In this document: positions 1,758 through 58,836 of the stretch, piece by piece
Layout of the letters: the number at the start of each line of letters is the position of its first letter
How positions within the stretch are numbered: the first letter of the stretch is position 1
IMG/VR virus record: IMGVR_UViG_3300044726_000156
Strand: one strand, 5' to 3'
DNA: 64,000 bases
Origin: a virus
Translations under genes and position numbers: made by a program
The notes under the pieces: model-generated
Databases searched by the model: none
Told to the model about the DNA's origin: nothing
Seen by the model: only the letters and a program-made list of their open reading frames with translations

Positions 1758-2858
1758 TTACGGGTTCGGGTCCTTGGCGGCGGTGTCGATCGACAGGATG
1801 CCGAAATCCTTGCCGTTGAACCGGGTCTTCTTGACACCCATGATGACGCCGGCCGCGACCTTCGGCTCGTTGCCGTGATCGGCCATCTCCTCGGTCCAGG
1901 TGAACCGCAGCCCGCCAGCCGAACCGTAAGCGCACACGCCAGCCTGGCGCCCCATGAACAGGGCGCGGGCGGCGAGCACGTTGGAACCAGCGCCGTAGTC
2001 GGAGAATCGGATGACGCTTTCGTGGCTGTGCAGCACGACATTGTCGATCATGCCGAGACCGCCCTTGAAGATCGGGTTGTTGCGACCCTCGGCCTGCGCG
2101 GCGGCCTTCTGGATGTCAAGCCAGCCACCGGCGTCGGAGATGCGAAGGTCATGTTCCTGGAACGGCGACATGACGCAGACGTAGTGCTGCTCGCCATCAA
2201 TCGAGATGGCGATCATATTGGCGGTCGATGGGTCCATCGCCCTCATCATCGTCGCCTTGACGGCGGCGCGCTCGATGACGGCACGGGTCATGGTGTCGCC
2301 GACGACCAGCGTGTTCTTGGCGTTGCCGGTGCCACCGTAGAGGATGTGGCCGGCGTCGGGAGCATCGATGGTGTTGCCGGCAAAGCCGGTCCAGGTGATG
2401 TCCTCGACGTAGTCCTGATTGATGCCGCGGGCACCGGACAGATAGATGAAATTGAGCTGATCGATGTACTGCGACCAATAATCCGAAAGGCGGTCGCGCG
2501 CGATCGAGCGGATGTTGTGTAGGGTGCGCTTGCGGCTCATCTTGCCGCCAGCGGAGACACCATGCCGCATTTGATCGATGTAGACCTGGTCGGTGAAGAA
2601 CCGGAGATTCTCCTCCTTGCCCTCCAGTCGATTGTCTCCCGTGGTGGGCTTATTGCGGAGCTGTACCGACAGATCGAAGCTGATCGTGTCGCCGGCGTCC
2701 GATTCAAGGTCCGTGAGACGCTGGATCACTCCATTGTCGGACTCCGATACGAACTTGCGGTCGAAGTAGCCCTTCGACAGGATGTCGAGGAACAGCTGAC
2801 CTGACCAACGCTTGACGGCCTTGGGATCGCCGAACGGGATTGTGGTGGGACCAGCCAT
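1758..2858 (-). CDS. Major capsid protein, N4-gp56 family
   Basis: 366 aa with family motifs GDPKAVKRWS, DLESDAGDTISFDL, LEGKEENL, IDQMRHGV, GGKMSRKRT and ARALFMGRQA; AGGAGG RBS. Confidence 0.93.
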   Translation of the reverse strand: MAGPTTIPFGDPKAVKRWSGQLFLDILSKGYFDRKFVSESDNGVIQRLTDLESDAGDTISFDLSVQLRNKPTTGDNRLEGKEENLRFFTDQVYIDQMRHGVSAGGKMSRKRTLHNIRSIARDRLSDYWSQYIDQLNFIYLSGARGINQDYVEDITWTGFAGNTIDAPDAGHILYGGTGNAKNTLVVGDTMTRAVIERAAVKATMMRAMDPSTANMIAISIDGEQHYVCVMSPFQEHDLRISDAGGWLDIQKAAAQAEGRNNPIFKGGLGMIDNVVLHSHESVIRFSDYGAGSNVLAARALFMGRQAGVCAYGSAGGLRFTWTEEMADHGNEPKVAAGVIMGVKKTRFNGKDFGILSIDTAAKDPNP

Positions 2859-2881
2859 TGGACGTGCCTCCTAGAGGGTCA

Positions 2882-2894
2882 GCACGTCCTGCGC
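2882..2894 (-). promoter_or_regulatory. Late-leader motif GCGCAGGACGTGC, copy 1 (major capsid leader)
   Basis: Exact 13-mer also at 54775-54787 and 58785-58797. Its GGACGUG pairs with CACGUCC lying between the SD and the AUG. Confidence 0.75.
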
Positions 2895-2943
2895 TTTTGC
2901 GAAGAAATACTTCGAAACGATCGCCGCGGCAAGCGGCATGCGT

Positions 2944-3303
2944 CTAAGTGAGGTTGACGCCGCCGTCGAGCACCGTCAGGAACAGCCGATCCTCGGTCTG
3001 CGGCACCGGCCACATCGACGACCCAGCCCTGTACTTGACGTAGCTGACGGCGATCGCCGACTGGCCGGTCAGTGAGATGGCGCGGCCGAGGCCGTTGCAC
3101 ACCAGCGCCACTTCCGAGCCGTCTGGGTTGAACAGATCGTCGAAGTGGACGCCGTCGACCGACACCTGAAAGGTGATGTCGCCGCCGTCCCAGCCCTTCG
3201 GCGTGACGATGCGGACCGGCCGTCCCTGCGTGAAGTTGGCGATCTCGGAAAGCGACTCGCCGGCCCGGATGATCGGACCGTCGACGATGACCAGATTTGG
3301 CAT
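2944..3303 (-). CDS. Conserved phage hypothetical protein (119 aa, beta-rich)
   Basis: AGGAGG RBS before MPNLVIVDGPIIRAGESLS; motif W-x-GG-x-ITFQVS-x-DG. Confidence 0.8.
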   Translation of the reverse strand: MPNLVIVDGPIIRAGESLSEIANFTQGRPVRIVTPKGWDGGDITFQVSVDGVHFDDLFNPDGSEVALVCNGLGRAISLTGQSAIAVSYVKYRAGSSMWPVPQTEDRLFLTVLDGGVNLT

Positions 3304-3313
3304 TGCCTGCCTC

Positions 3314-3526
3314 CTACGCCGCCGACTGGTTGTAATCCACGCGCTTTGGCACGCCGGTGATGCCATGCGTGTAGCGGGCCGGGACGATGCCGTAAGCGAG
3401 CATGCGCAGCGGCAGGTCGGTGAAGAAGGCGAGCTTCACCATCGACCCGGATTTCTGCTCGACCCGCACCGCAGCGACGTCGCCGATTTCCATTCCCTCG
3501 CCGACGCGGAGCGTTTTCGAGAACAT
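3314..3526 (-). CDS. CsrA/RsmA (carbon storage regulator)-like RNA-binding protein
   Basis: Aligns without gaps to E. coli CsrA as recalled: MFSKTLRVGEGMEIGDVAAVRVEQKSGSMVKL vs [32 protein letters not shown], 13 identities in the first 31 aa. AAGGAGG RBS. Confidence 0.68.
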   Translation of the reverse strand: MFSKTLRVGEGMEIGDVAAVRVEQKSGSMVKLAFFTDLPLRMLAYGIVPARYTHGITGVPKRVDYNQSAA

Positions 3527-3529
3527 TCG

Positions 3530-4477
3530 CTAGCCTCCTTGCAGGTAGAATTCGCGGTCCGCCGGTGACAGCCGCTTGAGCGCGTTCTCGAAGTCGACGC
3601 CCTTGAGCTTGTCGAGCCGCGCGAACTTGTTGATGGGTGCTGGGTTGTTGGCGTCGGCAGCCGGGATGTCGTTGAGGCTCGGCGGCATCTCGCGGTGCTT
3701 GCCGTTGCCATTGAGCTTCTTCTTCGCCTTGGGTTTTGGCTGCTCGACCACACCGAATTCCTTGGTGATCTTCTTGTGCGCCTCGGCGAGGATCTTCGGG
3801 TCGGTCGGATTGGTGCTCCCGGTTTGCAGCTTGCGCACCGTCAGGTCGAGTAGGTCATGCCGTACTGACCCTTCCTTGTATTCGGGGTGGGAGATCAGGA
3901 ACAACGGGATGGTGGTGTTGAACCAGGTGTTGATCGTCGTCTCGCTCGACATGCGGGCGACGGCGCGCTTCTCATGCAGCTGGTCGCGCTCGTCCTCGAG
4001 CTTCTCCTGCTGGTCGCGCATCTCGAGCGCGGTGATCTCGCCGTCGTCGAACTTGGTGGCGATCTCGCGCATCGCGGCCTTGATGTCGACGAGGCGCTTC
4101 TCCTCGTCGGCCGTCAGCTTGAGCGCCGGCGGCGGCGGTGGCGCCGCGTCGATCGTCTCGTCGTCGTCTTCTTCCTCGACCGGCGGATCTTCGGCGCCGG
4201 CGTCGTCGCCGGCGTCCGGCTCGTCGTTGTCGTCGGCCTCCGGCTCGTCCTCTTCCGGCTCTGGCTCCGGCTCCGGCTCCTCCTCCGGCTCGGGTTCCGG
4301 CTCCGGCTTGGGTTCCGGCTCCGGGTCGCCTTCCGGCTCGCCGGCGGCCGCGGAAGCGATCAGCGCGTCCTCGGCTGCCAGCTCGGCCTCGAGTTCGGCC
4401 TGATACTCCTTCAGCCCGACGCGCTCGTCTTCGGTGAGCAGGTCGAGATCCTCATCGGATATTTTCAATCGTGCCAT
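3530..4477 (-). CDS. Probable capsid scaffolding protein (acidic, PE-repeat linker)
   Basis: Lies between portal and capsid genes; very acidic, with a coiled coil and a basic C-terminus; start MARLKISD has an RBS. Confidence 0.7.
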   Translation of the reverse strand: MARLKISDEDLDLLTEDERVGLKEYQAELEAELAAEDALIASAAAGEPEGDPEPEPKPEPEPEPEEEPEPEPEPEEDEPEADDNDEPDAGDDAGAEDPPVEEEDDDETIDAAPPPPPALKLTADEEKRLVDIKAAMREIATKFDDGEITALEMRDQQEKLEDERDQLHEKRAVARMSSETTINTWFNTTIPLFLISHPEYKEGSVRHDLLDLTVRKLQTGSTNPTDPKILAEAHKKITKEFGVVEQPKPKAKKKLNGNGKHREMPPSLNDIPAADANNPAPINKFARLDKLKGVDFENALKRLSPADREFYLQGG

Positions 4478-4490
4478 GGTCGTGTCCTCT

Positions 4491-6884
4491 TCACGCGGGT
4501 GGCGGCGCTCCACCAATCCCTAGTTGCTCTTGTGGTCCCGCACCGGGCTGCGGGGGTTCTTGCTGCGACACGCCGGGCTGCTGCTGCTCGGCCTGCTGTT
4601 GCTGCTGCGCGGCGGCCTGTGCCTCCGCGGCCTGTGCCTGTTGCGCCTGCGCCGCCTGCATAGTGGCGAGCTGCGCGGCCTTCTTGTCGGAAGTCGACAT
4701 GAATCCACTTTCCGACAAAATGTAATCGGCCACCGGCGTGGCGGCCGGCACGGCGATCGCCACCTGGGCGGCGTCGAGTGCCTTCTGCTGTGCGTCGACA
4801 TTGTGGCCGGGGATCTTGGCGAGGGCCTCCTGCGCCAGCGCGGTGGTCTGCTCGGCCTTGGCCTGCGCCGTTCTGGCGTCGCCGATCGCCTTCTGCAGCT
4901 GCGCCTCGCCCATCGCCTGCTGCATCATTTGCTGCTTGGCCATCGCCTGCATGCGCTGCTGGTCTTCCGGCGAGGGGTTCTCCTTCTCGTCGGGGTCGAA
5001 CTGTCCGGTGACGCCGCGGATGCGCTTTACGATCTCCTCGCGGTTCGGCAGGTCCATGTTCTCGACGGCCAGGTCGAGCAGCAGGATCGAGATCTCCGGC
5101 GGCAACCGGGTCATCGCCTCCATCAGCTCGTCGGCCGCGGCCTGCCGGATGGTGGCGTGCCAGGCGGCCTCCGAGATGACGAAGTCCGCCTTGTTGCGGG
5201 TGATGTCGTTCTCGGGCAGGCCGTCGTTGACCTCGACATAGTCGGACTTGCCACGCATCGAGGTGATGCGGAACTGCTTCGGCTCGTCCATGAACTGCTC
5301 GATGTTGGCGAGCTGCTTCTCGCCGTGGACCTGCTGCGCGAACAACAAATTGTCGAACAATTTGGCGGTGGCCAGGCTGCCCTGATCCTGCCGGCGTTGT
5401 ATCGCCACGCCCGACGTGGCATTGGTCTTGCGACCCAGCAGCTCGTCGGTGACGCCGCTGGCCTGCTGGATCATGGCGATGTCGCGCGACATCAGTTCGA
5501 GGTGCCATTGGGCAAGGTCACGATCAGCGTTGAGAATGATCTCCTTGCCCGGCACCTTGCGAATAATGGCATCCGGTCGACTGACTTCCTCCTGGAATTC
5601 CTCGAAGGTCATGTCGTCAGGCAGGGCGTCGTAATCCATTATGATCTTCGACGTCGAGAGGATATGAAGCGCCTTGGAAGCGCGCTTGTTCACGTCGACC
5701 TGGATGTCTTTGAGCCGGCGAATGACCCCGTAAGGAGCGCCGTCCTTGCCGCGCCGGTAGCCCCAGATCGGGGTCAGCGGGAAGCGGTTGTGACGGTAGG
5801 GGCTGGGCGAGAACCACAGCATCCCGGCGTCGACGAATAGGCCGACATGCATGCGCATGATGGTCTTCTTGACGACCTCGGCGTCACCGGATTCGACCTG
5901 ATCGGTGTGGCCGGCCGACTGCGGGTCGAACAGCTCGCCCGAAAAGTCGCCGCCCTTCAATTTCCCCGCTGTTACCGGCCGCTTGTACCAGGCCTCGATG
6001 ATCCTGACGCGCATGCGCTGGAAGCCGGTGACGTCGCGCGCGGTGCCGGTGCCGTAGACCTGGTCGAGAGCGTTCTCCTGACTGTCCATCGGCTCGTCGC
6101 CGTACTCGTCGTGCTGCTGGAAGTCGTCGGCGCTGCTGGAAGATGATGTGAGGATCTCCGCGCGGTCGGGAAACAGGGCGATAGCGACGTCGAGGTCCAC
6201 CCATTTGGAGCGGAAGATGTACCTTCCGTCTTCAACGTCGAGGTTTGTGGCGGCCGTATCGTGAAGGACATTGCGCCAGCTTTCGTAGCGTGTGTAGAGC
6301 GGCTCGTCCTCGCCGTCGCCGTCATAGCCGTCCTCGATCCAGCCGATGCCGACCTTGATGGCGTCCTCGAAGGCGCGGGAGATGTGGAAGTGCTCGCGGT
6401 TGACGTCGCTGAGATACTTCATCAGCGCGGTCTTCTGGGAGGCCGGCTTGGCGTGCTGCTTCTTGCGCGGCAGCACCTTGAAGTCGGTGCGCGATCGCTT
6501 TTGTGAACCTGTTATCCAATCGATCGACGTCGAGATGACGTTGTAGACCAACGGCACCTGGCCGCGGTCCTCCAGCTGCGCAGCATCCGCCTCGGACCAC
6601 TGGATATTGTCATAAAAATCATCGTCTTCCGCCATCTCGGCGCGGTTTTCGGCCTGCCGGTCAAGCTCGTTGGAGTAGCAGGCCAGCATCTGGCTGTGCA
6701 GCTCCTGCATCGCCGGCGAATCCAGCTTGGCGCTGTCGCCGCCCGCGTTGGTGCGGTCCGGCATGGCCAGCGCCGTGGTCGCCTTCTGGCTGGCCGGCAT
6801 CGGATCGCCGTAGCCGCCGTTCTCCCTGTCTCGCTTCGCCCTCACCGATCCGTCGCGCGCCCGCAGGTCGAACATCTGTGCCAT
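4491..6884 (-). CDS. Portal protein (P22/Bcep22-like)
   Basis: 797 aa; motifs EDDDFYDNIQW, GQVPLVYNVI, RFPLTPIWGYRR, G-x-PYGVIR, QQASGV and SGVAIQRRQDQG; Q/A-rich C-terminal barrel. Confidence 0.92.
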   Translation of the reverse strand: MAQMFDLRARDGSVRAKRDRENGGYGDPMPASQKATTALAMPDRTNAGGDSAKLDSPAMQELHSQMLACYSNELDRQAENRAEMAEDDDFYDNIQWSEADAAQLEDRGQVPLVYNVISTSIDWITGSQKRSRTDFKVLPRKKQHAKPASQKTALMKYLSDVNREHFHISRAFEDAIKVGIGWIEDGYDGDGEDEPLYTRYESWRNVLHDTAATNLDVEDGRYIFRSKWVDLDVAIALFPDRAEILTSSSSSADDFQQHDEYGDEPMDSQENALDQVYGTGTARDVTGFQRMRVRIIEAWYKRPVTAGKLKGGDFSGELFDPQSAGHTDQVESGDAEVVKKTIMRMHVGLFVDAGMLWFSPSPYRHNRFPLTPIWGYRRGKDGAPYGVIRRLKDIQVDVNKRASKALHILSTSKIIMDYDALPDDMTFEEFQEEVSRPDAIIRKVPGKEIILNADRDLAQWHLELMSRDIAMIQQASGVTDELLGRKTNATSGVAIQRRQDQGSLATAKLFDNLLFAQQVHGEKQLANIEQFMDEPKQFRITSMRGKSDYVEVNDGLPENDITRNKADFVISEAAWHATIRQAAADELMEAMTRLPPEISILLLDLAVENMDLPNREEIVKRIRGVTGQFDPDEKENPSPEDQQRMQAMAKQQMMQQAMGEAQLQKAIGDARTAQAKAEQTTALAQEALAKIPGHNVDAQQKALDAAQVAIAVPAATPVADYILSESGFMSTSDKKAAQLATMQAAQAQQAQAAEAQAAAQQQQQAEQQQPGVSQQEPPQPGAGPQEQLGIGGAPPPA

Positions 6885-16655: not shown

Positions 16656-16674
16656 TCCTGTTTCCTGTTTCCTG
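16656..16674 (-). promoter_or_regulatory. Tandem CAGGA(AA) repeat x3 over an RBS
   Basis: mRNA AAACAGGAAACAGGAAACAGGACCAUG, 7-nt period. Confidence 0.7.
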
Positions 16675-28560: not shown

Positions 28561-28639
28561 TAAGCGATTTTAGGTTCCTTACTACGCAGGAACGGCGTTG
28601 GTGTCGGCCGTAGACAGACACAGGAAACAGGAAAGCAAA

Positions 28640-38547: not shown

Positions 38548-38810
38548 CCGACGCGCTGCAGCAGCACCTGAACGAACGCACCGATCCGATCGAGCGGCTG
38601 CGCGCCCACCTCGAGAAGCACAAGCATCACCAGCAGGCGTTCTTCTCCACCGCCGGGCTGAGCGCGCTGCTCGAACGGCTGAAAACCACCGAGACCAAGG
38701 TCGACGCGCTGCAGGCGCAGGTCGAGCGGCTGCTCGGCAAAGAGGGGAAGCGGATCGGCGAGGCACTGGTCCACAACCACGAACTGAGGCGGGAGCAGGG
38801 AGGCGACTGA
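38544..38810 (+). CDS. Coiled-coil hypothetical protein (88 aa)
   Basis: GGAGG RBS. Confidence 0.65.
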   Translation: MTDALQQHLNERTDPIERLRAHLEKHKHHQQAFFSTAGLSALLERLKTTETKVDALQAQVERLLGKEGKRIGEALVHNHELRREQGGD

Positions 38811-38884
38811 TGCAATATCCGGGGATTCTGTTCCTGCTGATCCTGTTGCTCAGCGGGTTGCGGGGACGGCGGCGCAGGGGGTAG
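38810..38884 (+). CDS. Possible 24-aa membrane peptide MQYPGILFLLILLLSGLRGRRRRG
   Basis: TGATG coupling with a GGAGG RBS; TM segment followed by an Arg tail. Confidence 0.5.
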   Translation: MQYPGILFLLILLLSGLRGRRRRG

Positions 38885-39105
38885 AGTGGGCGCCGTAGAA
38901 ACCTCTTTTTTGTGGAGGGAGGCGTTTAGTGAGGGTGAGCGGCCAGCCCGACAACGGATAGTCACCTCCCAGCCTCCCCCCGGTCTCAACAGCGCCGGGA
39001 TTCATACGGGTCAAGGTGACACGGCTAGGAAAGTGCAGTCAGGAATTGGGGTTTTTCGTGTTGAGGAACGAGAGGCGGCGAGGGTCGTGCCCCCGCCGCT
39101 TTTTT
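38885..39105 (+). ncRNA. Candidate structured GGA-rich small RNA or 3' UTR
   Basis: No credible ORF; nested stems GGGAGGC/GCCTCCC and GAGGGTGA/TCACCTC; seven GGA trinucleotides; ends in a terminator. Confidence 0.35.
39075..39105 (+). terminator. Rho-independent terminator (possibly bidirectional)
   Basis: GCGGCG-A-GGG-TCGTG-CCC-C-CGCCGC-TTTTTT between convergent operons. Confidence 0.75.
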
Positions 39106-39314
39106 CATCTGATCGCCGGTAGGGTGAAGCCGCCGCCGGCCAGCGCCCGCCACAACAGCAGGATCACGATCAGCGCGAAAATGACCCACAGGATCTGGAT
39201 GACCTTGGGCGGGATCGGTATCCCGACGACGTTGGTGAGCACCCAGACGACGAGATAGAACACCAGCGCAATGACGCAGATGTAGATCAGCAGTGTGATG
39301 ACGGTCTCGATCAT
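39105..39314 (-). CDS. Two-TM membrane protein (holin candidate, 69 aa)
   Basis: Two hydrophobic helices around GIPIPPK; directly downstream of the endolysin; AAGGAG RBS. Confidence 0.65.
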   Translation of the reverse strand: MIETVITLLIYICVIALVFYLVVWVLTNVVGIPIPPKVIQILWVIFALIVILLLWRALAGGGFTLPAIR

Positions 39315-53492: not shown

Positions 53493-54752
53493 TCATGCCC
53501 TCCTGATGCCGAACGCTTGCGCCTTCACACCGGGCCTGGCGGTGGTCAGCTTGACGGCGCTCGAGCGCGCCTTGGCCGGCGACTGCGAGCTGCGCCGCGG
53601 TGCCGGTGTCGGCTTCTTGGCCTTGACCTTGGCCGGTCCCTTCTTGCCACCCAGCGCCTTGTCCATCTTGCTCACCTTGTGGTCCAGATCCTGCACCGCC
53701 TTCATGGTGATGCCGATGGCGTCCTGCAGGTCGATCGTCCCGGTGTCTTTCTGGCCGGTCGCCTTGGCGTATCTGTCGGCCATCGTGCCGATATGCTGCT
53801 TGGCGCCGCCGTCGGCGCCCGGGCGGTTGTCCTTGTAGCGGTAGGTCGAGACCGGCATTTTCTTGACCGCCTTGAGGCCGTCGCCGGTCTTGACCTTCTT
53901 GATGTTTTTCTTGGCCTTGCGATCGGACAATCCGATCGCCGCGCCGCCGATCGTGCCGATGGCGCTCCACAGGCCCTGCGCGTTGGCTGATTTCAGCTCC
54001 TGTTCCTTGCCCCATGCATCCAGTTGGAGACCGTACTGGTTGAGCAGCGTCGACGCCTGGCCGGCGTAGCCCTGCATGGCGCCGCCGAACCCCTGCCCCA
54101 TGATGGCCGAGTTGGAATTGGAGATCTGCTGGTTGGCCTGGTTCATGCCGACCGCGCTGCTGCCCGCGCCCAGCGCCTGGCTGACGCCCTGGGCGGCCTG
54201 CGCCGGCAGGCCGGCATACATGTTGGCGACATCCGCCTTCAGAGCCAGACCCTTGTCGCGCATGGCGGTCCTGGCCGCGTTGCCGGCACCCGCCGTGGCG
54301 GTGGCGGTGGCCAGCTCGCCGGCCCGCTCGATGCCTTTGTAGCGACCGGATCCCGGCTTGACGCCGAGTGCGGCGCTCTCGCGCTGCGCCTGCGCGCGAG
54401 CGGCGGCTGCTTCCGTCTGGACGCCGGTGCGCGCCTCGGCGGCGGCCTGCGCCTGCCGCTCCGGCGACGAATAGGACAGCGCATCCTTGGCGAAGGCATC
54501 CTGCGCTCCCCAGCCCTTGCTCTCGTAGCGGGCGCGGTCCTTCTTGGCGTTGGCCAGCGACATGTCGCCGATGCCGAGCTGCTGCTCGGTGACGCGCTTG
54601 GTCAGCGCGTCGAGACCCTTCTGCCGATCGGTGGATACCTTGAAGGCGTCCCTCGCGAAGGACAGCCACTGCTCGCCGGTCGTCGCCTGCTTGAGAGCCG
54701 CTGCGCCGATCTGGGGATCTGGGGATGGTGCGTCGCCGCCGCCTTTAGCCAT
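53493..54752 (-). CDS. Internal virion (pilot-like) protein with a C-terminal peptidase S74 chaperone domain
   Basis: MAKGGGDAPSPDP, A/Q/G-rich helices, then LSDRKAKKNI...YRYK...HIGTMA...ID..DAIG....AVQ.L. Confidence 0.85.
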   Translation of the reverse strand: MAKGGGDAPSPDPQIGAAALKQATTGEQWLSFARDAFKVSTDRQKGLDALTKRVTEQQLGIGDMSLANAKKDRARYESKGWGAQDAFAKDALSYSSPERQAQAAAEARTGVQTEAAAARAQAQRESAALGVKPGSGRYKGIERAGELATATATAGAGNAARTAMRDKGLALKADVANMYAGLPAQAAQGVSQALGAGSSAVGMNQANQQISNSNSAIMGQGFGGAMQGYAGQASTLLNQYGLQLDAWGKEQELKSANAQGLWSAIGTIGGAAIGLSDRKAKKNIKKVKTGDGLKAVKKMPVSTYRYKDNRPGADGGAKQHIGTMADRYAKATGQKDTGTIDLQDAIGITMKAVQDLDHKVSKMDKALGGKKGPAKVKAKKPTPAPRRSSQSPAKARSSAVKLTTARPGVKAQAFGIRRA

Positions 54753-54774
54753 CGCAGGACTCCGTGGGAAGCCG

Positions 54775-54787
54775 GCACGTCCTGCGC
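54775..54787 (-). promoter_or_regulatory. Late-leader motif GCGCAGGACGTGC, copy 2
   Basis: CGCAGGAC pairs with GUCCUGCG immediately before the AUG; TATAAC lies 14 nt upstream. Confidence 0.75.
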
Positions 54788-54802
54788 TGGTTAGTTTGGC
54801 CG

Positions 54803-55249
54803 TTATACAGCGATCGGTCGCACCGGCATAGACACCCACCGGCAGTCGCGCGCCAGCATGCCATAGAGCAGCAGATCCTCGCGATCGAGACCGGCCTCGC
54901 GCATGACGCCCTCGAGCTTCCAGCCGCCAAACCTGTTGGTGAAGCGGATCGACGCCTTGTTGTTCCTCGAGATCAGACAGGTGATGCGCGGGAACATCAG
55001 CTGCACGAAGGGGTACGCCATGACGCGAATGATGAACTCGCGCGTCATCCAGTGCTTGCTGGAATCCGAGACGACGGTCATCAGGCAGTCGTTGACGCCA
55101 AAGGTGTCGAACACGACGACGCCGCGGATCTTGCCGTCCTTCTCCATGGCGATCGCCTTGGCGTCATTGCGGAAGCGATGACCGTGCCCGAGGATCTCGG
55201 TGGCCCAGGCGACCAGACGCTCGTCCTGGTCGTAGATGTACTCGATCAC
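54803..55249 (-). CDS. GNAT-fold virion protein (T7 gp13-like position)
   Basis: G.I.GVVVF, W.TREF....AYPF.QL...RIT.LI...N.ASIR....G.K.EG..R.....D..LYGML..DCRW. Confidence 0.82.
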   Translation of the reverse strand: MIEYIYDQDERLVAWATEILGHGHRFRNDAKAIAMEKDGKIRGVVVFDTFGVNDCLMTVVSDSSKHWMTREFIIRVMAYPFVQLMFPRITCLISRNNKASIRFTNRFGGWKLEGVMREAGLDREDLLLYGMLARDCRWVSMPVRPIAV

Positions 55250-57536: not shown

Positions 57537-58762
57537 CAGATGTACCTGATCATCTTGTTGACGATGAGCGTCGGCTGGACGTTGTTGTGCGGCACGTCGG
57601 AGCCGACGCTGGCGGTGCTGCCCTCCAGCGTGTGAACGTGGTCACCCTGCGAGGCGGGGGTGGTGAGCGTCCCCAGTGCGTTGCCGCTGCCCCACGCATA
57701 GACGCCGACGGCGTTGCTGATGCTCGAATAGTTGTGGGTGTGGTCGCCGCTGCCCGCCTTGGTCTTGGCGGTGGCAGAGACCAGACTGTGAACGTGCGCG
57801 GAAATTTGTGAGTCCAGCAGCGTGTGCGTCTCGAAGCCGCCAGTGCCACCGAGCACATCGCCGTTGATGCCGCCGACGGTGCTGCCGGTCGGATTGGTCA
57901 GGCGGTTGGCCGAGGTGCCGCCCATGTTGTCCTTGCCGGCGGCGACACGGCCGCGGAAGTCGGGCAGGCGAAACTGGGTGGCCGTCAGCCCGACCTCGGT
58001 GAAGTTGCGGCCGATCACCGAGTAGAGCGCGTAATAGGTGCTGCCGGCGGCGCCGAACGTCAGCGCGCGGCCGTCGCACAGCAGCCATCCGGTCGGCACC
58101 TTGGCGTCGGGTCCGGCGAATTCGAAAATGGTGCCGATCGGAATGTCTTCAGGTGCGACGTTCCACACCCGCGACCAGGCACCCCAGACGCTGTTGACCT
58201 TCTGACGCCGCCACCGCTCGTCGCTGTTGTAGCGTTGCCATTCCTGCAGCTGGATCGCCGACGAGGCGACGTCGCAGCGCACCCATGCGTAGGTGTCGAC
58301 CGGCGCGTGCAGCACGCCTGTCGGTGACCAGTAGGTGCCGGATTCGGTGACCAGATCGAGGTCACCATCGGCACCAAGGCTCATCTCGGTGGCGCGCAGG
58401 CGCGGCGGCAAACGGGCGTCGGGGACGATGCCCTTGGTCAGCGCCGCGGCGTCCGACGTCGCTTCGAGCAGCGCGCCGGCGGTGAGACGAACCTCGACAC
58501 GCGAGTTGAGCGGGAAGCCGCGCTTGGCTGTCAGCTCCTGGCCGCGCACCACCGTCAGCGTGACGCCGGTGCGTGAGGTGCAGCGCATGATCTCGCGGTT
58601 GCCGACATTGTCGGTGACGGTGACCGGGAACCAGTGATCGGTGGCGACTGCGGCGACGGGGAACCGCGCCTCGTCGCCCGACGTGATTTTGATCGTCGTG
58701 ATCGTCGCGTCGATCGGCTGGGCGAGCAGCGAAATCGCATTGTTGGTCAGCTGCATGGTCAT
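57536..58762 (-). CDS. Tail fibre protein 2 (anchor, knob-like domain, tail collar)
   Basis: N-terminal anchor shared with 59521..61326; DLDLVTESGTYW knob-like segment; PIGTI.EFAG...P.GWLLCDG...F.LPD.RGR; HNNVQPTL.VNKMIR. Confidence 0.85.
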   Translation of the reverse strand: MTMQLTNNAISLLAQPIDATITTIKITSGDEARFPVAAVATDHWFPVTVTDNVGNREIMRCTSRTGVTLTVVRGQELTAKRGFPLNSRVEVRLTAGALLEATSDAAALTKGIVPDARLPPRLRATEMSLGADGDLDLVTESGTYWSPTGVLHAPVDTYAWVRCDVASSAIQLQEWQRYNSDERWRRQKVNSVWGAWSRVWNVAPEDIPIGTIFEFAGPDAKVPTGWLLCDGRALTFGAAGSTYYALYSVIGRNFTEVGLTATQFRLPDFRGRVAAGKDNMGGTSANRLTNPTGSTVGGINGDVLGGTGGFETHTLLDSQISAHVHSLVSATAKTKAGSGDHTHNYSSISNAVGVYAWGSGNALGTLTTPASQGDHVHTLEGSTASVGSDVPHNNVQPTLIVNKMIRYI

Positions 58763-58784
58763 GGCGGCACCCGTTCGTAGGGCC

Positions 58785-58797
58785 GCACGTCCTGCGC
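58785..58797 (-). promoter_or_regulatory. Late-leader motif GCGCAGGACGTGC, copy 3
   Basis: Shares 16 bp (CCAGCGCAGGACGTGC) with copy 2; TATAGT lies 12 nt upstream; hairpin GCGGC.../...GCCGC runs up to the AUG region. Confidence 0.75.
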
Positions 58798-58836
58798 TGG
58801 CTGTGTCCGACTATAGCAGCCCGTGCCGCCGCGTTG

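What the first reader, a model, noticed from the sequence alone, without database searches (positions are those of the whole stretch)
3314..3526. Phage CsrA/RsmA-like protein in the head operon: core of a putative phage-encoded Csr translational switch
Seen: the first 31 aa align without gaps to CsrA (13 identities, including RVGE, IGD and the beta-strand Val pattern), and the gene sits two genes upstream of the major capsid gene. Established: CsrA binds GGA motifs (CsrB-type repeat CAGGA(U/C/A)G), represses when the site overlaps the SD, and can activate by opening inhibitory hairpins. Rhizobial hosts are not known to rely on CsrA. Inference: with the three late-leader CAGGACG hairpins, the tandem CAGGAAA early/middle RBSs and the GGA-rich RNA at 38.9 kb, this forms a self-contained early-to-late switch. 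The late protein would open late RBS hairpins and shut off early/middle translation. Caveat: CsrA Arg44 is not conserved at the aligned position (an Arg occurs 3 residues earlier).
Basis: partly seen in the sequence, partly recalled or inferred. Interest (0 to 1): 0.92.

Follow-up and report, generated by a model that had tools for sequence, protein, structure and literature searches.

The report
Divergent phage CsrA-like late protein
A 70-residue late phage gene is a diverged relative of the bacterial RNA-binding regulator CsrA; it is a core gene placed after the scaffold gene in Bcep22-like podophages and may switch on capsid and other late mRNAs through a conserved leader hairpin, but most of the proposed phage Csr circuit is not supported.

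Summary
The ORF (3314-3526, minus strand, 70 aa) is real. Its first 38 residues are homologous to CsrA strands beta1-beta4 (13/32 identities without gaps; hhalign 95%). It is the orthologue of the "CsrA-like regulator" already annotated at the same place (portal, scaffold, CsrA-like, capsid) in Lessievirus and Ralstonia phages, and about 80 capsid-clade relatives carry it. It is a core gene, not a moron.

It is not a canonical CsrA:
- It has no Pfam hit.
- L4, R6, R44 and E46 are replaced.
- The C-terminal helix is replaced by a G-x-x-P-x-R-[FY]-x-x-G-I-T-G tail.
- Its AlphaFold model does not match solved CsrA chains, whereas the model of an R44-type orthologue does.

The three "CAGGACG" leaders are real. 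They are copies of a 13-mer that can fold as a four-pair stem with an A-N-G-A-(N) loop, or instead pair with the start region of the capsid, ejection-protein and tail-fibre genes. The first G of GGA is G in only 22 of 49 gene-carrying relatives.

The tandem CAGGAAA sites are not conserved, and the "GGA-rich RNA" is unremarkable.

Best reading (about 0.45): a late RNA-binding activator of these leaders with altered specificity.

Other first-reader notes on this window describe the same 13-mer.

The parts
3314..3526 (-). CsrA-like gene, 70 aa. The model has strands at 2-6, 11-14, 18-21, 30-34 and 40-43. The tail carries G46, P49, R51, Y52 and G55-I-T-G58.
   Evidence: ORF. PHROG 8397 E = 1e-5. 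hhalign 95.4% to CsrA 1-38. AlphaFold model with pLDDT 84.8. Family alignments.
3534..3540 (-). Shine-Dalgarno AAGGAGG of the CsrA-like gene. It lies inside the last codons of the scaffold gene, whose stop codon is 3 nt before the ATG, so the two genes are probably translationally coupled.
   Evidence: Read directly.
3530..4516 (-). Scaffold-like acidic protein (PHROG 8246). The likely true start is the ATG at 4477.
   Evidence: A homologous gene precedes the CsrA-like gene in POI1126 and PBC5. In BcepMigl one extra gene lies between them.
4491..6884 (-). Portal protein (P22-like portal).
   Evidence: Pfam PF16510 E = 2.7e-178.
2944..3303 (-). 119-aa ORF inserted between the CsrA-like gene and the capsid promoter. 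Its SD overlaps the CsrA-like stop codon. No family match.
   Evidence: Only the window and L004 have the extra space for it.
2904..2909 (-). Weak -10-like box TATTTC, 9 nt upstream of the 13-mer. Putative capsid promoter.
   Evidence: A -10-like hexamer peaks 13-17 nt upstream of the motif in 29 of 60 relatives.
2882..2894 (-). 13-mer GCGCAGGACGTGC, copy 1, in the capsid leader. It can form a local stem GCGC/GUGC with loop AGGAC.
2856..2889 (-). Long-range hairpin. GGACGTGC (2882-2889) pairs with GCACGTCC (2860-2867). The SD lies in the 14-nt loop and the ATG is at 2856-2858.
   Evidence: -20.4 kcal/mol. Covariation across relatives.
1758..2858 (-). Major capsid protein (Phage_capsid_3).
   Evidence: Pfam PF13252 E = 8.9e-67, PHROG 334.
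54750..54807 (-). Late module, copy 2: TATAAC box (54802-54807), 13-mer (54775-54787), then CGCAGGAC paired with GTCCTGCG abutting the ATG at 54752.
   Evidence: (-20.8 kcal/mol).
58760..58815 (-). Late module, copy 3: TGcTATAGT extended -10 box (58810-58815), 13-mer (58785-58797), then a hairpin ending at the ATG at 58762.
   Evidence: (-22.9 kcal/mol).

Best explanation
The ORF encodes a small basic late protein. It is the orthologue, in phages of alphaproteobacterial type, of the 'CsrA-like regulator' that Bcep22-like podophages carry between the scaffold and major capsid genes.

Shown:
- Residues 1-38 are homologous to CsrA beta1-beta4.
- The second half of CsrA (beta5 with R44, then the helix) is replaced by P-L-R-x-L and a conserved G-[IV]-[IV]-P-x-R-[FY]-x-x-G-I-T-G tail.
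- The gene is probably translationally coupled to the scaffold gene.
- It is a core gene of this capsid clade.

Inferred mechanism:
- The protein is still an RNA-binding post-transcriptional regulator, with changed specificity.
- Its targets are the phage's own late mRNAs.
- Each late leader begins, a few bases after a -10-like box, with the 13-mer GCGC-A(N)GA(N)-GUGC.
- The 13-mer can fold locally as a four-pair stem presenting an A-N-G-A-(N) loop, which is the architecture of a CsrA site.
- Alternatively it pairs with the bases between the SD and the AUG and closes the ribosome-binding site.
- Binding to the local stem-loop, possibly as the RNA is being made, would keep the start region open. 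It might also protect the 5' end.
- Capsid, ejection-protein and tail-fibre synthesis would then follow portal and scaffold synthesis.
For: Homology:
- (47 of 57 family members hit PF02599 at E <= 1).

Orthology and synteny:
- BcepMigl gp35 is annotated 'CsrA-like regulator' and scores 32 bits on PF02599.
- POI1126 gp06 is 47% identical.
- PBC5 gp26 lies directly after the scaffold gene.
- 63 of 84 loci carry the gene by the first HMM. Nine more show it with a broader HMM (two of these weakly, E 0.02-0.04), and four have it elsewhere in the genome.
- R44-type orthologues pass the Pfam cut-off, and one models as a CsrA chain (TM 0.65, rmsd 1.0 A, probability 1.0).

Conserved basic residues:
- R/K7 in 86 of 114 sequences, K/R25 in 112 of 114, R/K31 in 99 of 114.

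Fold:
- The model has the five strands of CsrA.
- Its best fold matches are FlbT (probability 0.85, E 0.64), which is annotated as a flagellin repressor, and the NOA1/YqeH C-terminal domain (rmsd 1.1-1.5 A over about 45 residues, E 0.18-4.4). All these matches have E above 0.1.

Leaders:
- Three exact 13-mers precede late genes, each with a stable hairpin ending at the ATG.
- The capsid-leader motif is present in about 57 distinct relatives. Pairing within a locus averages 6.8 bp, against 5.4 +/- 0.17 bp across loci.
- The local stem is paired in all 46 sequences. Changes seen are G:C to U:A and G:U to G:C.
- Each genome has 1-5 copies against 0-1 in reversed controls.
- The motif resembles the SELEX and CsrB site, which has GGA in the loop of a stem of four pairs or fewer (PMC7652899).
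- Activation of ymdA by hairpin opening is a precedent.
Against: - No binding was measured.
- The window protein has no Pfam CsrA hit even at E <= 10.
- It lacks L4, R6, R44 and E46, which are critical in E. coli, RsmE and C. jejuni CsrA.
- Its confident model finds no solved CsrA chain.
- The gene is nearly universal in the clade, so no gene-less relative exists to test whether the motif depends on it.
- In the raw counts, R44 goes with a GGA loop (12 of 15). This rests on about two lineages and is not significant after phylogenetic control (3-5 independent pairs, p >= 0.5).
- The 13-mer could be read by another factor, or act only in cis as a 5' stabiliser or promoter-proximal DNA element.
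Confidence: 0.45

Rival explanations
1. Assembly or virion protein. The CsrA-like beta domain has been re-used as a small structural or assembly cofactor, made together with the scaffold protein and bound to scaffold, capsid or portal through the conserved C-terminal G-I-T-G tail. It has no RNA-regulatory role. It may be packaged.
For: - It is a core gene fixed between the scaffold and capsid genes, and probably translationally coupled to the scaffold gene.
- One unique peptide of the JC1 orthologue was found in purified virions (PMC9144972).
- R44, R6 and L4 are lost.
- The model is a closed fold unlike CsrA chains.
- The C-terminal motif is conserved in both subfamilies.
Against: - The single peptide was not considered conclusive by its authors.
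- R44-type orthologues remain good Pfam CsrA members with CsrA-like models.
- The nearest fold relatives include FlbT, an annotated flagellin repressor.
- The capsid leader next to the gene looks like a CsrA site.
Confidence: 0.2
2. Host-directed moron. The protein mimics or interferes with a host post-transcriptional regulator (CsrA/RsmA where the host has one, or FlbT-type flagellin control in alphaproteobacteria) to reprogramme host metabolism, motility or defence.
For: - Published papers treat phage csrA genes as morons or possible CRISPR repressors (PMC9144972, PMC7366521, PMC8450108).
- The best Swiss-Prot fold matches are FlbT proteins of Rhizobiales.
Against: - The gene is a core, position-fixed late gene in about 80 relatives. 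It is not patchy like a moron.
- It is expressed with structural genes, which is late for host takeover.
- Burkholderia and rhizobial hosts lack CsrA.
- No sequence-level FlbT match was found for the window protein.
Confidence: 0.15
3. A canonical GGA-binding CsrA opens the late hairpins, represses early and middle genes at the tandem CAGGAAA ribosome-binding sites, and is titrated by a GGA-rich sponge RNA at 38.9 kb.
For: - Counts in the window exceed shuffles: CAGGACG 31 against 15 expected, CAGGAAA 11 against 4.
- Two tandem CAGGAAA pairs lie over ribosome-binding sites.
- The window's three 13-mers do contain GGA.
Against: - The key GGA-contact residues are absent.
- GGA is not conserved in the leaders of gene-carrying relatives.
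- No tandem CAGGAAA occurs in the closest relative or in four other genomes.
- CAGGAAA is simply an AGGA-type SD.
- The 38.9-kb region is only at the 97th percentile for GGA, part of it codes for a 24-aa peptide, and it has no Rfam match.
Confidence: 0.07

Closest known systems
Lessievirus / Bcep22-like phage 'CsrA-like regulator' (BcepMigl gp35, JC1 gp47, DC1, Ralstonia phage GP4; PHROG 8397)
   Same: - Same place in the head module, downstream of the scaffold gene and upstream of the capsid gene.
- Same size.
- Same N-terminal beta1-beta4 sequence pattern.
- Same C-terminal G-[IL]-[TS]-G motif.
- The capsid leader carries the same GCGC-A(N)GA(N)-GUGC element.
   Different: - Those proteins keep the A-P/D-K-S-V-P-V-x-R loop with R44, pass the Pfam CsrA cut-off, and model as CsrA chains.
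- The window protein has a shorter beta4-beta5 loop, with R at the preceding position.
- It has an added G-I-V-P-x-R-Y segment and no Pfam hit.
- Its model is a closed fold.
- Its genome has three leader copies instead of one.
Bacterial CsrA/RsmA/RsmE (PF02599; PDB 1y00, 2jpp)
   Same: - Homologous over residues 1-38, including G9, E10, I14, G15, D16, G27 and V30.
- Five short strands at the same positions.
- Small and basic.
   Different: - L4 is K, R6 is L, R44 is M or A, and E46 is absent.
- There is no C-terminal helix.
- A dimer was not established.
- It is encoded by a phage late operon, apparently in a host group without CsrA.
CsrA activation of E. coli ymdA (Renda et al. 2020, as reviewed in PMC7652899)
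   Same: A leader hairpin sequesters the ribosome-binding site, and a site for the protein lies inside or upstream of the 5' arm. This is the logic proposed here.
   Different: Binding to ymdA is shown. Here it is inferred. The phage element is repeated in several operons and lies at the 5' end of the transcripts.
FlbT (PF07378), flagellin mRNA repressor of alphaproteobacteria
   Same: It gives the best matches in Swiss-Prot AlphaFold models (probability 0.77-0.85, TM 0.42-0.47 over 42-52 residues). From my own knowledge, it regulates the translation of a self-assembling structural protein.
   Different: No sequence-level match for the window protein. FlbT is twice as long, with a helical C-terminal half. 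The structural E-values are weak (0.6-0.8).
Phage Mu Com / mom translational activation (from my own knowledge)
   Same: A small phage late protein binds next to a hairpin that hides the start region and switches on translation.
   Different: Com is a zinc-finger protein and is unrelated in sequence.

Membership tests
CsrA (Pfam PF02599) | Scores above the curated Pfam gathering cut-off (27 bits) | tested here: not met
   No PF02599 hit for the window protein even at E <= 10. Close relatives reach E = 0.005-0.02. R44-type orthologues score 29.5-37.6 bits.
CsrA (Pfam PF02599) | Profile-level homology to CsrA | tested here: met
   hhalign 95.4% over CsrA residues 1-38. The family profile finds RsmE/CsrA in PDB sequences at E = 1.8e-8. 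47 of 57 family members hit PF02599 at E <= 1.
CsrA (Pfam PF02599) | Arg44, the residue most critical for RNA binding | tested here: not met
   The position is M42 in gapped alignment or A44 ungapped. R41 lies one or three residues earlier. Across 114 family sequences, only 20 have R at the R44 position. Importance of R44: PMC7652899 and PMC6692469.
CsrA (Pfam PF02599) | Leu2 and Leu4 of beta1, and the Arg6-Glu46 salt bridge | tested here: not met
   The window has F2, K4 and L6. R6 is never present in the family (V, L, M or I). No E46 equivalent exists.
CsrA (Pfam PF02599) | Five beta strands followed by a C-terminal alpha helix | tested here: inconclusive
   The model has strands at 2-6, 11-14, 18-21, 30-34 and 40-43, as in CsrA, but no helix of four or more residues.
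CsrA (Pfam PF02599) | Chain conformation of the interlocked CsrA dimer (match to solved structures) | tested here: not met
   Foldseek against PDB finds no CsrA chain at E <= 10. VIA-align gives only RsmN at Z = 2.1. As a control, the model of orthologue L048 has CsrA/RsmE chains as its top 15 matches (TM up to 0.65, rmsd about 1.0 A). Both are monomer models.
CsrA (Pfam PF02599) | Homodimer | tested here: inconclusive
   The two-copy complex job gave no verdict (score 0.34, mark 0.42).
CsrA (Pfam PF02599) | GGA-dependent RNA binding | not testable with these tools
   Needs EMSA, ITC or CLIP. Indirect evidence: GGA is not conserved in the candidate target.
Phage 'CsrA-like regulator' of Bcep22-like podophages (PHROG 8397) | Match to the PHROG profile | tested here: met
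   E = 1e-5, 26.4 bits, residues 3-32.
Phage 'CsrA-like regulator' of Bcep22-like podophages (PHROG 8397) | Conserved position downstream of the portal and scaffold genes in phages with a P22-like portal and a Phage_capsid_3 capsid | tested here: met
FlbT (Pfam PF07378) | Sequence match to the FlbT profile, and a two-domain protein of about 125 aa | tested here: not met
   No hit for the window protein. It has only 70 aa. The only similarity is a weak fold match.

The most novel reading that the evidence does not exclude
A phage-autonomous Csr-type circuit. The CsrA-derived protein is made in step with the scaffold protein. It binds the 5'-terminal GCGC-A(N)GA(N)-GUGC stem-loop of late mRNAs and flips them from a closed to an open ribosome-binding site. 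Capsid, ejection-protein and tail-fibre synthesis is thereby timed after portal and scaffold synthesis. The conserved C-terminal G-I-T-G tail could dock a structural protein, which would give assembly-coupled feedback like FliW-CsrA-flagellin. Protein and loop sequence have drifted together, away from the canonical R44/GGA pair.
Probability: 0.3. Interest if true: 0.8.

Novelty: new variant of a known kind. Interest (0 to 1): 0.55.

Why it matters
Phage-borne csrA genes have been catalogued since 2011 and are usually called morons, with no demonstrated function. In this capsid clade, the gene is a core, position-fixed late gene. It sits beside a conserved, CsrA-site-like RNA element that can occlude the capsid ribosome-binding site. 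Together these give a concrete and cheap hypothesis to test: the phage uses a CsrA-derived protein to control translation of its own structural genes.

If the hypothesis holds, it would be the first assigned role for a phage CsrA. It would also show a CsrA fold whose specificity changed after R44 was lost, and it would provide a compact protein/RNA switch that works in hosts without a Csr system.

If it fails, the gene is one more divergent member of an annotated phage family.

Tried and rejected
- **Homodimer prediction.** No verdict (0.34 against a mark of 0.42). It is not evidence either way.
- **Single-sequence searches.** Pfam and phmmer against PDB sequences found nothing for the window protein. 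Only profiles and the PHROG library detect the homology.
- **Fold searches with the window model.** Foldseek against PDB and BFVD, and VIA-align wide, gave no CsrA match. The best hits have Z <= 2.6 or E > 0.1.
- **Co-variation of R44 with the GGA loop.** The raw table is suggestive. On a capsid tree only 3-5 independent pairs remain, and the sign test gives p >= 0.5. I keep it as a lead only.
- **Gene-less relatives as a natural control.** None usable. Apparent absences were resolved by a broader HMM or by finding the gene elsewhere in the genome. Only L069 and L070 show none within 4 kb.
- **Rfam scan of the whole window.** No family, so no CsrB/RsmY/RsmZ-like RNA.
- **GGA density at 38.85-39.10 kb.** 97th percentile, not exceptional.
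- **Tandem CAGGAAA in relatives.** Absent.
- **The 119-aa neighbouring ORF against BcepMigl gp36.** Unrelated.
- **Whole genome of the window.** Not held.
- **Bcep22 founding paper (PMC3187461).** Not held.
- **Structure jobs.** I rebuilt the alignment without those rows.
- **Repeat proteins P0026, P0049 and P0058 from the representative search.** Judged spurious.

Full report
**The object**

Window 3314-3526 (minus strand) is an ATG-initiated ORF of 70 codons with GC3 0.86. Its AAGGAGG Shine-Dalgarno lies inside the last codons of the upstream gene. That gene's stop codon is 3 nt before the ATG.

The neighbours are:
- a P22-type portal (PF16510, E = 2.7e-178);
- a 328-aa acidic scaffold-like protein (PHROG 8246);
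- this ORF;
- a 119-aa ORF without any family match;
- the major capsid protein (PF13252, PHROG 334).

The window has 65% G+C and the layout of a Bcep22-like podophage. The layout includes a 3947-aa virion protein ORF. No host genome is held.

**Is the CsrA likeness real?**

Yes, for the first half of the protein.
- BLASTP against E. coli K-12 CsrA gives 13/32 identities with no gap (E = 2e-4 for the pair).
- PHROG 8397 'CsrA-like regulator' matches residues 3-32 (E = 1e-5).
- An exhaustive profile search found 57 cluster representatives at E <= 0.001, nearly all 58-91 aa long.
- 47 of 57 aligned family members hit PF02599 at E <= 1.
- The family profile finds solved RsmE and CsrA sequences at E = 1.8e-8 to 2e-5.
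- hhalign against E. coli CsrA gives 95.4% probability, but only over CsrA residues 1-38.

The window protein alone has no Pfam hit at E <= 10 and no PDB sequence hit.

**It is an already annotated kind of phage gene**

The same position holds a gene annotated 'CsrA-like regulator' or 'carbon storage regulator' in these phages:
- Burkholderia phages BcepMigl, DC1 and JC1;
- many Ralstonia phages.

Ochrobactrum phage POI1126 gp06 (47% identity) is the homologue in the same position but is annotated only as a hypothetical protein.

What the papers say:
- The JC1 paper calls the gene a moron. It found one peptide in purified virions and did not consider this conclusive (PMC9144972).
- A survey lists DC1 and GP4 among csrA-positive phages. 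It notes that Burkholderia hosts have no chromosomal csrA (PMC7366521).
- Rhizobia also have no recognisable CsrA (PMC7143759).

Distribution among 83 loci fetched by capsid similarity, plus the window:
- 63 carry the gene by a first HMM.
- Nine more show it with a broader HMM, two of them only weakly.
- In PBC5, G001, G003 and G007 the gene lies elsewhere in the genome.
- In PBC5 it again lies directly after the scaffold gene.

It is therefore a core late gene linked to the scaffold gene. It does not have the patchy distribution of a moron.

**It is not a canonical CsrA**

The residues that matter most for RNA binding in E. coli, RsmE and C. jejuni CsrA are L2, L4, R6, R7, V40, V42, R44 and I47, together with the R6-E46 salt bridge (PMC7652899 and PMC6692469).

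The window protein compares as follows:
- It has F2, K4, L6 and R7.
- The beta4-beta5 loop is shorter.
- The R44 position holds M42. That position varies in the closest relatives (M, S, D, C).
- R41 is conserved one residue earlier.
- There is no E46.

Across 114 family sequences, R6 never occurs and only 20 have R at the R44 position.

The CsrA helix is replaced by a conserved G46-x-x-P49-x-R51-[FY]52-x-x-G55-I-T-G58 tail. The G-I-T-G part is also present in the R44-type orthologues.

Conserved basic residues remain: R/K7, K25 (112 of 114) and R/K31.

**Fold**

The AlphaFold model of the window protein (59-row alignment, pLDDT 84.8) has five strands at the CsrA positions but no helix. Its fold searches gave:
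- no solved CsrA chain by Foldseek;
- only RsmN, at Z = 2.1, by VIA-align;
- FlbT of Rhizobiales as the best Swiss-Prot model matches (probability 0.77-0.85);
- the NOA1/YqeH C-terminal domain as the best AlphaFold-cluster matches (rmsd 1.1-1.5 A over about 45 residues).

All of these best matches have E-values above 0.1, so they are leads rather than assignments.

As a control I modelled an R44-type orthologue, L048, which scores 34 bits on PF02599. Its top 15 PDB matches are all CsrA/RsmE/RsmA chains (TM up to 0.65, rmsd about 1.0 A, probability 1.0 for the first 14).

The method can therefore see the CsrA chain conformation, and it does not see it in the window protein. This may mean a closed, FlbT-like monomer. 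Both are monomer models, however, and the two-copy job gave no verdict.

**The proposed targets: the late leaders**

The three 'CAGGACG hairpins' are exact copies of GCGCAGGACGTGC at 2882-2894, 54775-54787 and 58785-58797, all on the minus strand.
- Each lies 9-14 nt downstream of a -10-like box: TATTTC, TATAAC or TGcTATAGT.
- Each lies exactly 35-36 nt upstream of a start codon.
- The three genes are the capsid gene, a 419-aa gene and a 408-aa gene.
- Each forms a hairpin of -20 to -23 kcal/mol that ends at the ATG.
- The three copies pair with their start regions in different registers. The 13-mer is therefore constrained beyond that pairing.

The capsid-leader element is conserved across relatives:
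- About 57 distinct relatives carry it as GCGCA-N-GA-(N)-GTGC.
- The variable base covaries with its partner next to the ATG.
- Pairing within a locus averages 6.8 bp, against 5.4 +/- 0.17 bp for cross-locus controls.
- A -10-like hexamer peaks 13-17 nt upstream of the motif in 29 of 60 leaders.

Copy number differs by lineage:
- Genomes of the window's type have 3-5 copies, in front of capsid, tail, lysis and DarB-like genes.
- Lessievirus-type genomes have one functional copy, the capsid leader.
- Reversed-pattern controls give 0-1.

The 13-mer is also a local stem-loop. GCGC pairs with GUGC and closes a 4-5 nt loop, A-N-G-A-(N).
- All four pairs are standard in 46 of 46 sequences.
- G:C changes to U:A in four sequences, and G:U changes to G:C in two.
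- The covariation score is 0.166, against 0.079 +/- 0.014 in shuffles.
- This support is modest, because two of the pairs never vary.

In the R44-type phages the loop reads AGGA or AGGAU. That is close to the SELEX and CsrB site, which has GGA in the loop of a stem of four pairs or fewer, with the core CA-GGA-UG (PMC7652899).

The idea that the late protein opens late hairpins gains a concrete form. Binding the local stem-loop would exclude the long-range helix that closes the ribosome-binding site, as CsrA does at ymdA.

The specific GGA logic does not hold across relatives:
- Among 49 distinct capsid leaders from gene-carrying relatives, the first G is G in 22, T in 14 and A in 13. Ten have no GGA anywhere in the leader.
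- All five POI1126 copies read TGA.

In the raw counts, R44 goes with GGA: 12 of 15 R44 proteins, against 0 of 13 for A-variant leaders. On a capsid tree only 3-5 independent contrasts remain, and nothing is significant.

The other two parts of the circuit fail:
- The tandem CAGGAAA sites at 16661-16674 and 28621-28634 are AGGA-type Shine-Dalgarno sequences. No such tandem (one mismatch allowed) occurs in the closest relative (99% capsid identity) or in four other genomes with the gene.
- The 38.85-39.10 kb region has 8 GGA per 250 nt, against a window mean of 3.2. That is the 97th percentile, and the maximum of 14 lies elsewhere. The stretch just before it codes for a 24-aa hydrophobic peptide, it ends in a terminator, and it matches no Rfam family.

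**Verdict**

The gene is a divergent member of a known, already annotated phage CsrA-like family.

The best-supported mechanism (confidence about 0.45) is an RNA-binding late regulator with altered specificity that acts on the phage's own 13-mer leaders.

The rivals are:
- an assembly or virion role (0.2);
- a host-directed role (0.15);

Every binding step is inferred and none is shown.

Noticed in passing
window 2856-2909, 54750-54807, 58760-58815 (minus strand); L001-L083 capsid leaders: A composite late module: a -10-like box, 9-15 nt of spacer, the 13-mer GCGC-A(N)GA(N)-GUGC, the SD, then the complement of the 13-mer's 3' half abutting the ATG. It allows two mutually exclusive folds: a local four-pair stem-loop, or a long helix that closes the ribosome-binding site. 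Genomes of the window's type have 3-5 copies. Lessievirus-type genomes have one.
   Followed up: yes
window 2944-3303 (minus strand): A 119-aa ORF lies between the CsrA-like gene and the capsid promoter. It has no Pfam or PHROG match and is unrelated to BcepMigl gp36 (PF13876), which occupies a neighbouring position. Only the window and L004 have room for it, so it is probably a recent insertion.
   Followed up: partly
window 3314-3526 C-terminal residues 46-58; L028-L056 orthologues: A C-terminal G-[IL]-[TS]-G motif, often followed by K/R-P, is conserved in both the R44-type and the R41-type subfamilies, although the segment before it differs. It may be a docking or RNA-contact motif.
   Followed up: partly
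L003 / L088 (Sinorhizobium phage PBC5, NC_003324) and G001: In PBC5-like genomes the capsid module is separated from the terminase, portal, scaffold and CsrA-like block. The capsid gene and the divergent endolysin gene each carry a copy of the leader motif in one 150-nt intergenic region.
   Followed up: partly
window 38810-38884 (plus strand): A 24-codon ORF overlaps the upstream stop codon by 1 nt (TGATG). It encodes a hydrophobic stretch followed by an Arg-rich end, so it may be a small membrane peptide.
   Followed up: no
window 39070-39110 (plus strand): A G+C-rich stem followed by a run of six T, typical of an intrinsic terminator, at the junction of the convergent early (plus) and late (minus) blocks.
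   Followed up: no
L004 (IMGVR_UViG_3300044728_000202, 65.5 kb): The closest relative has 99% capsid identity, but its loop and SD in the capsid leader differ and one of its 13-mers reads GGAAGTGC. The leader evolves faster than the capsid gene while keeping its pairing.
   Followed up: partly
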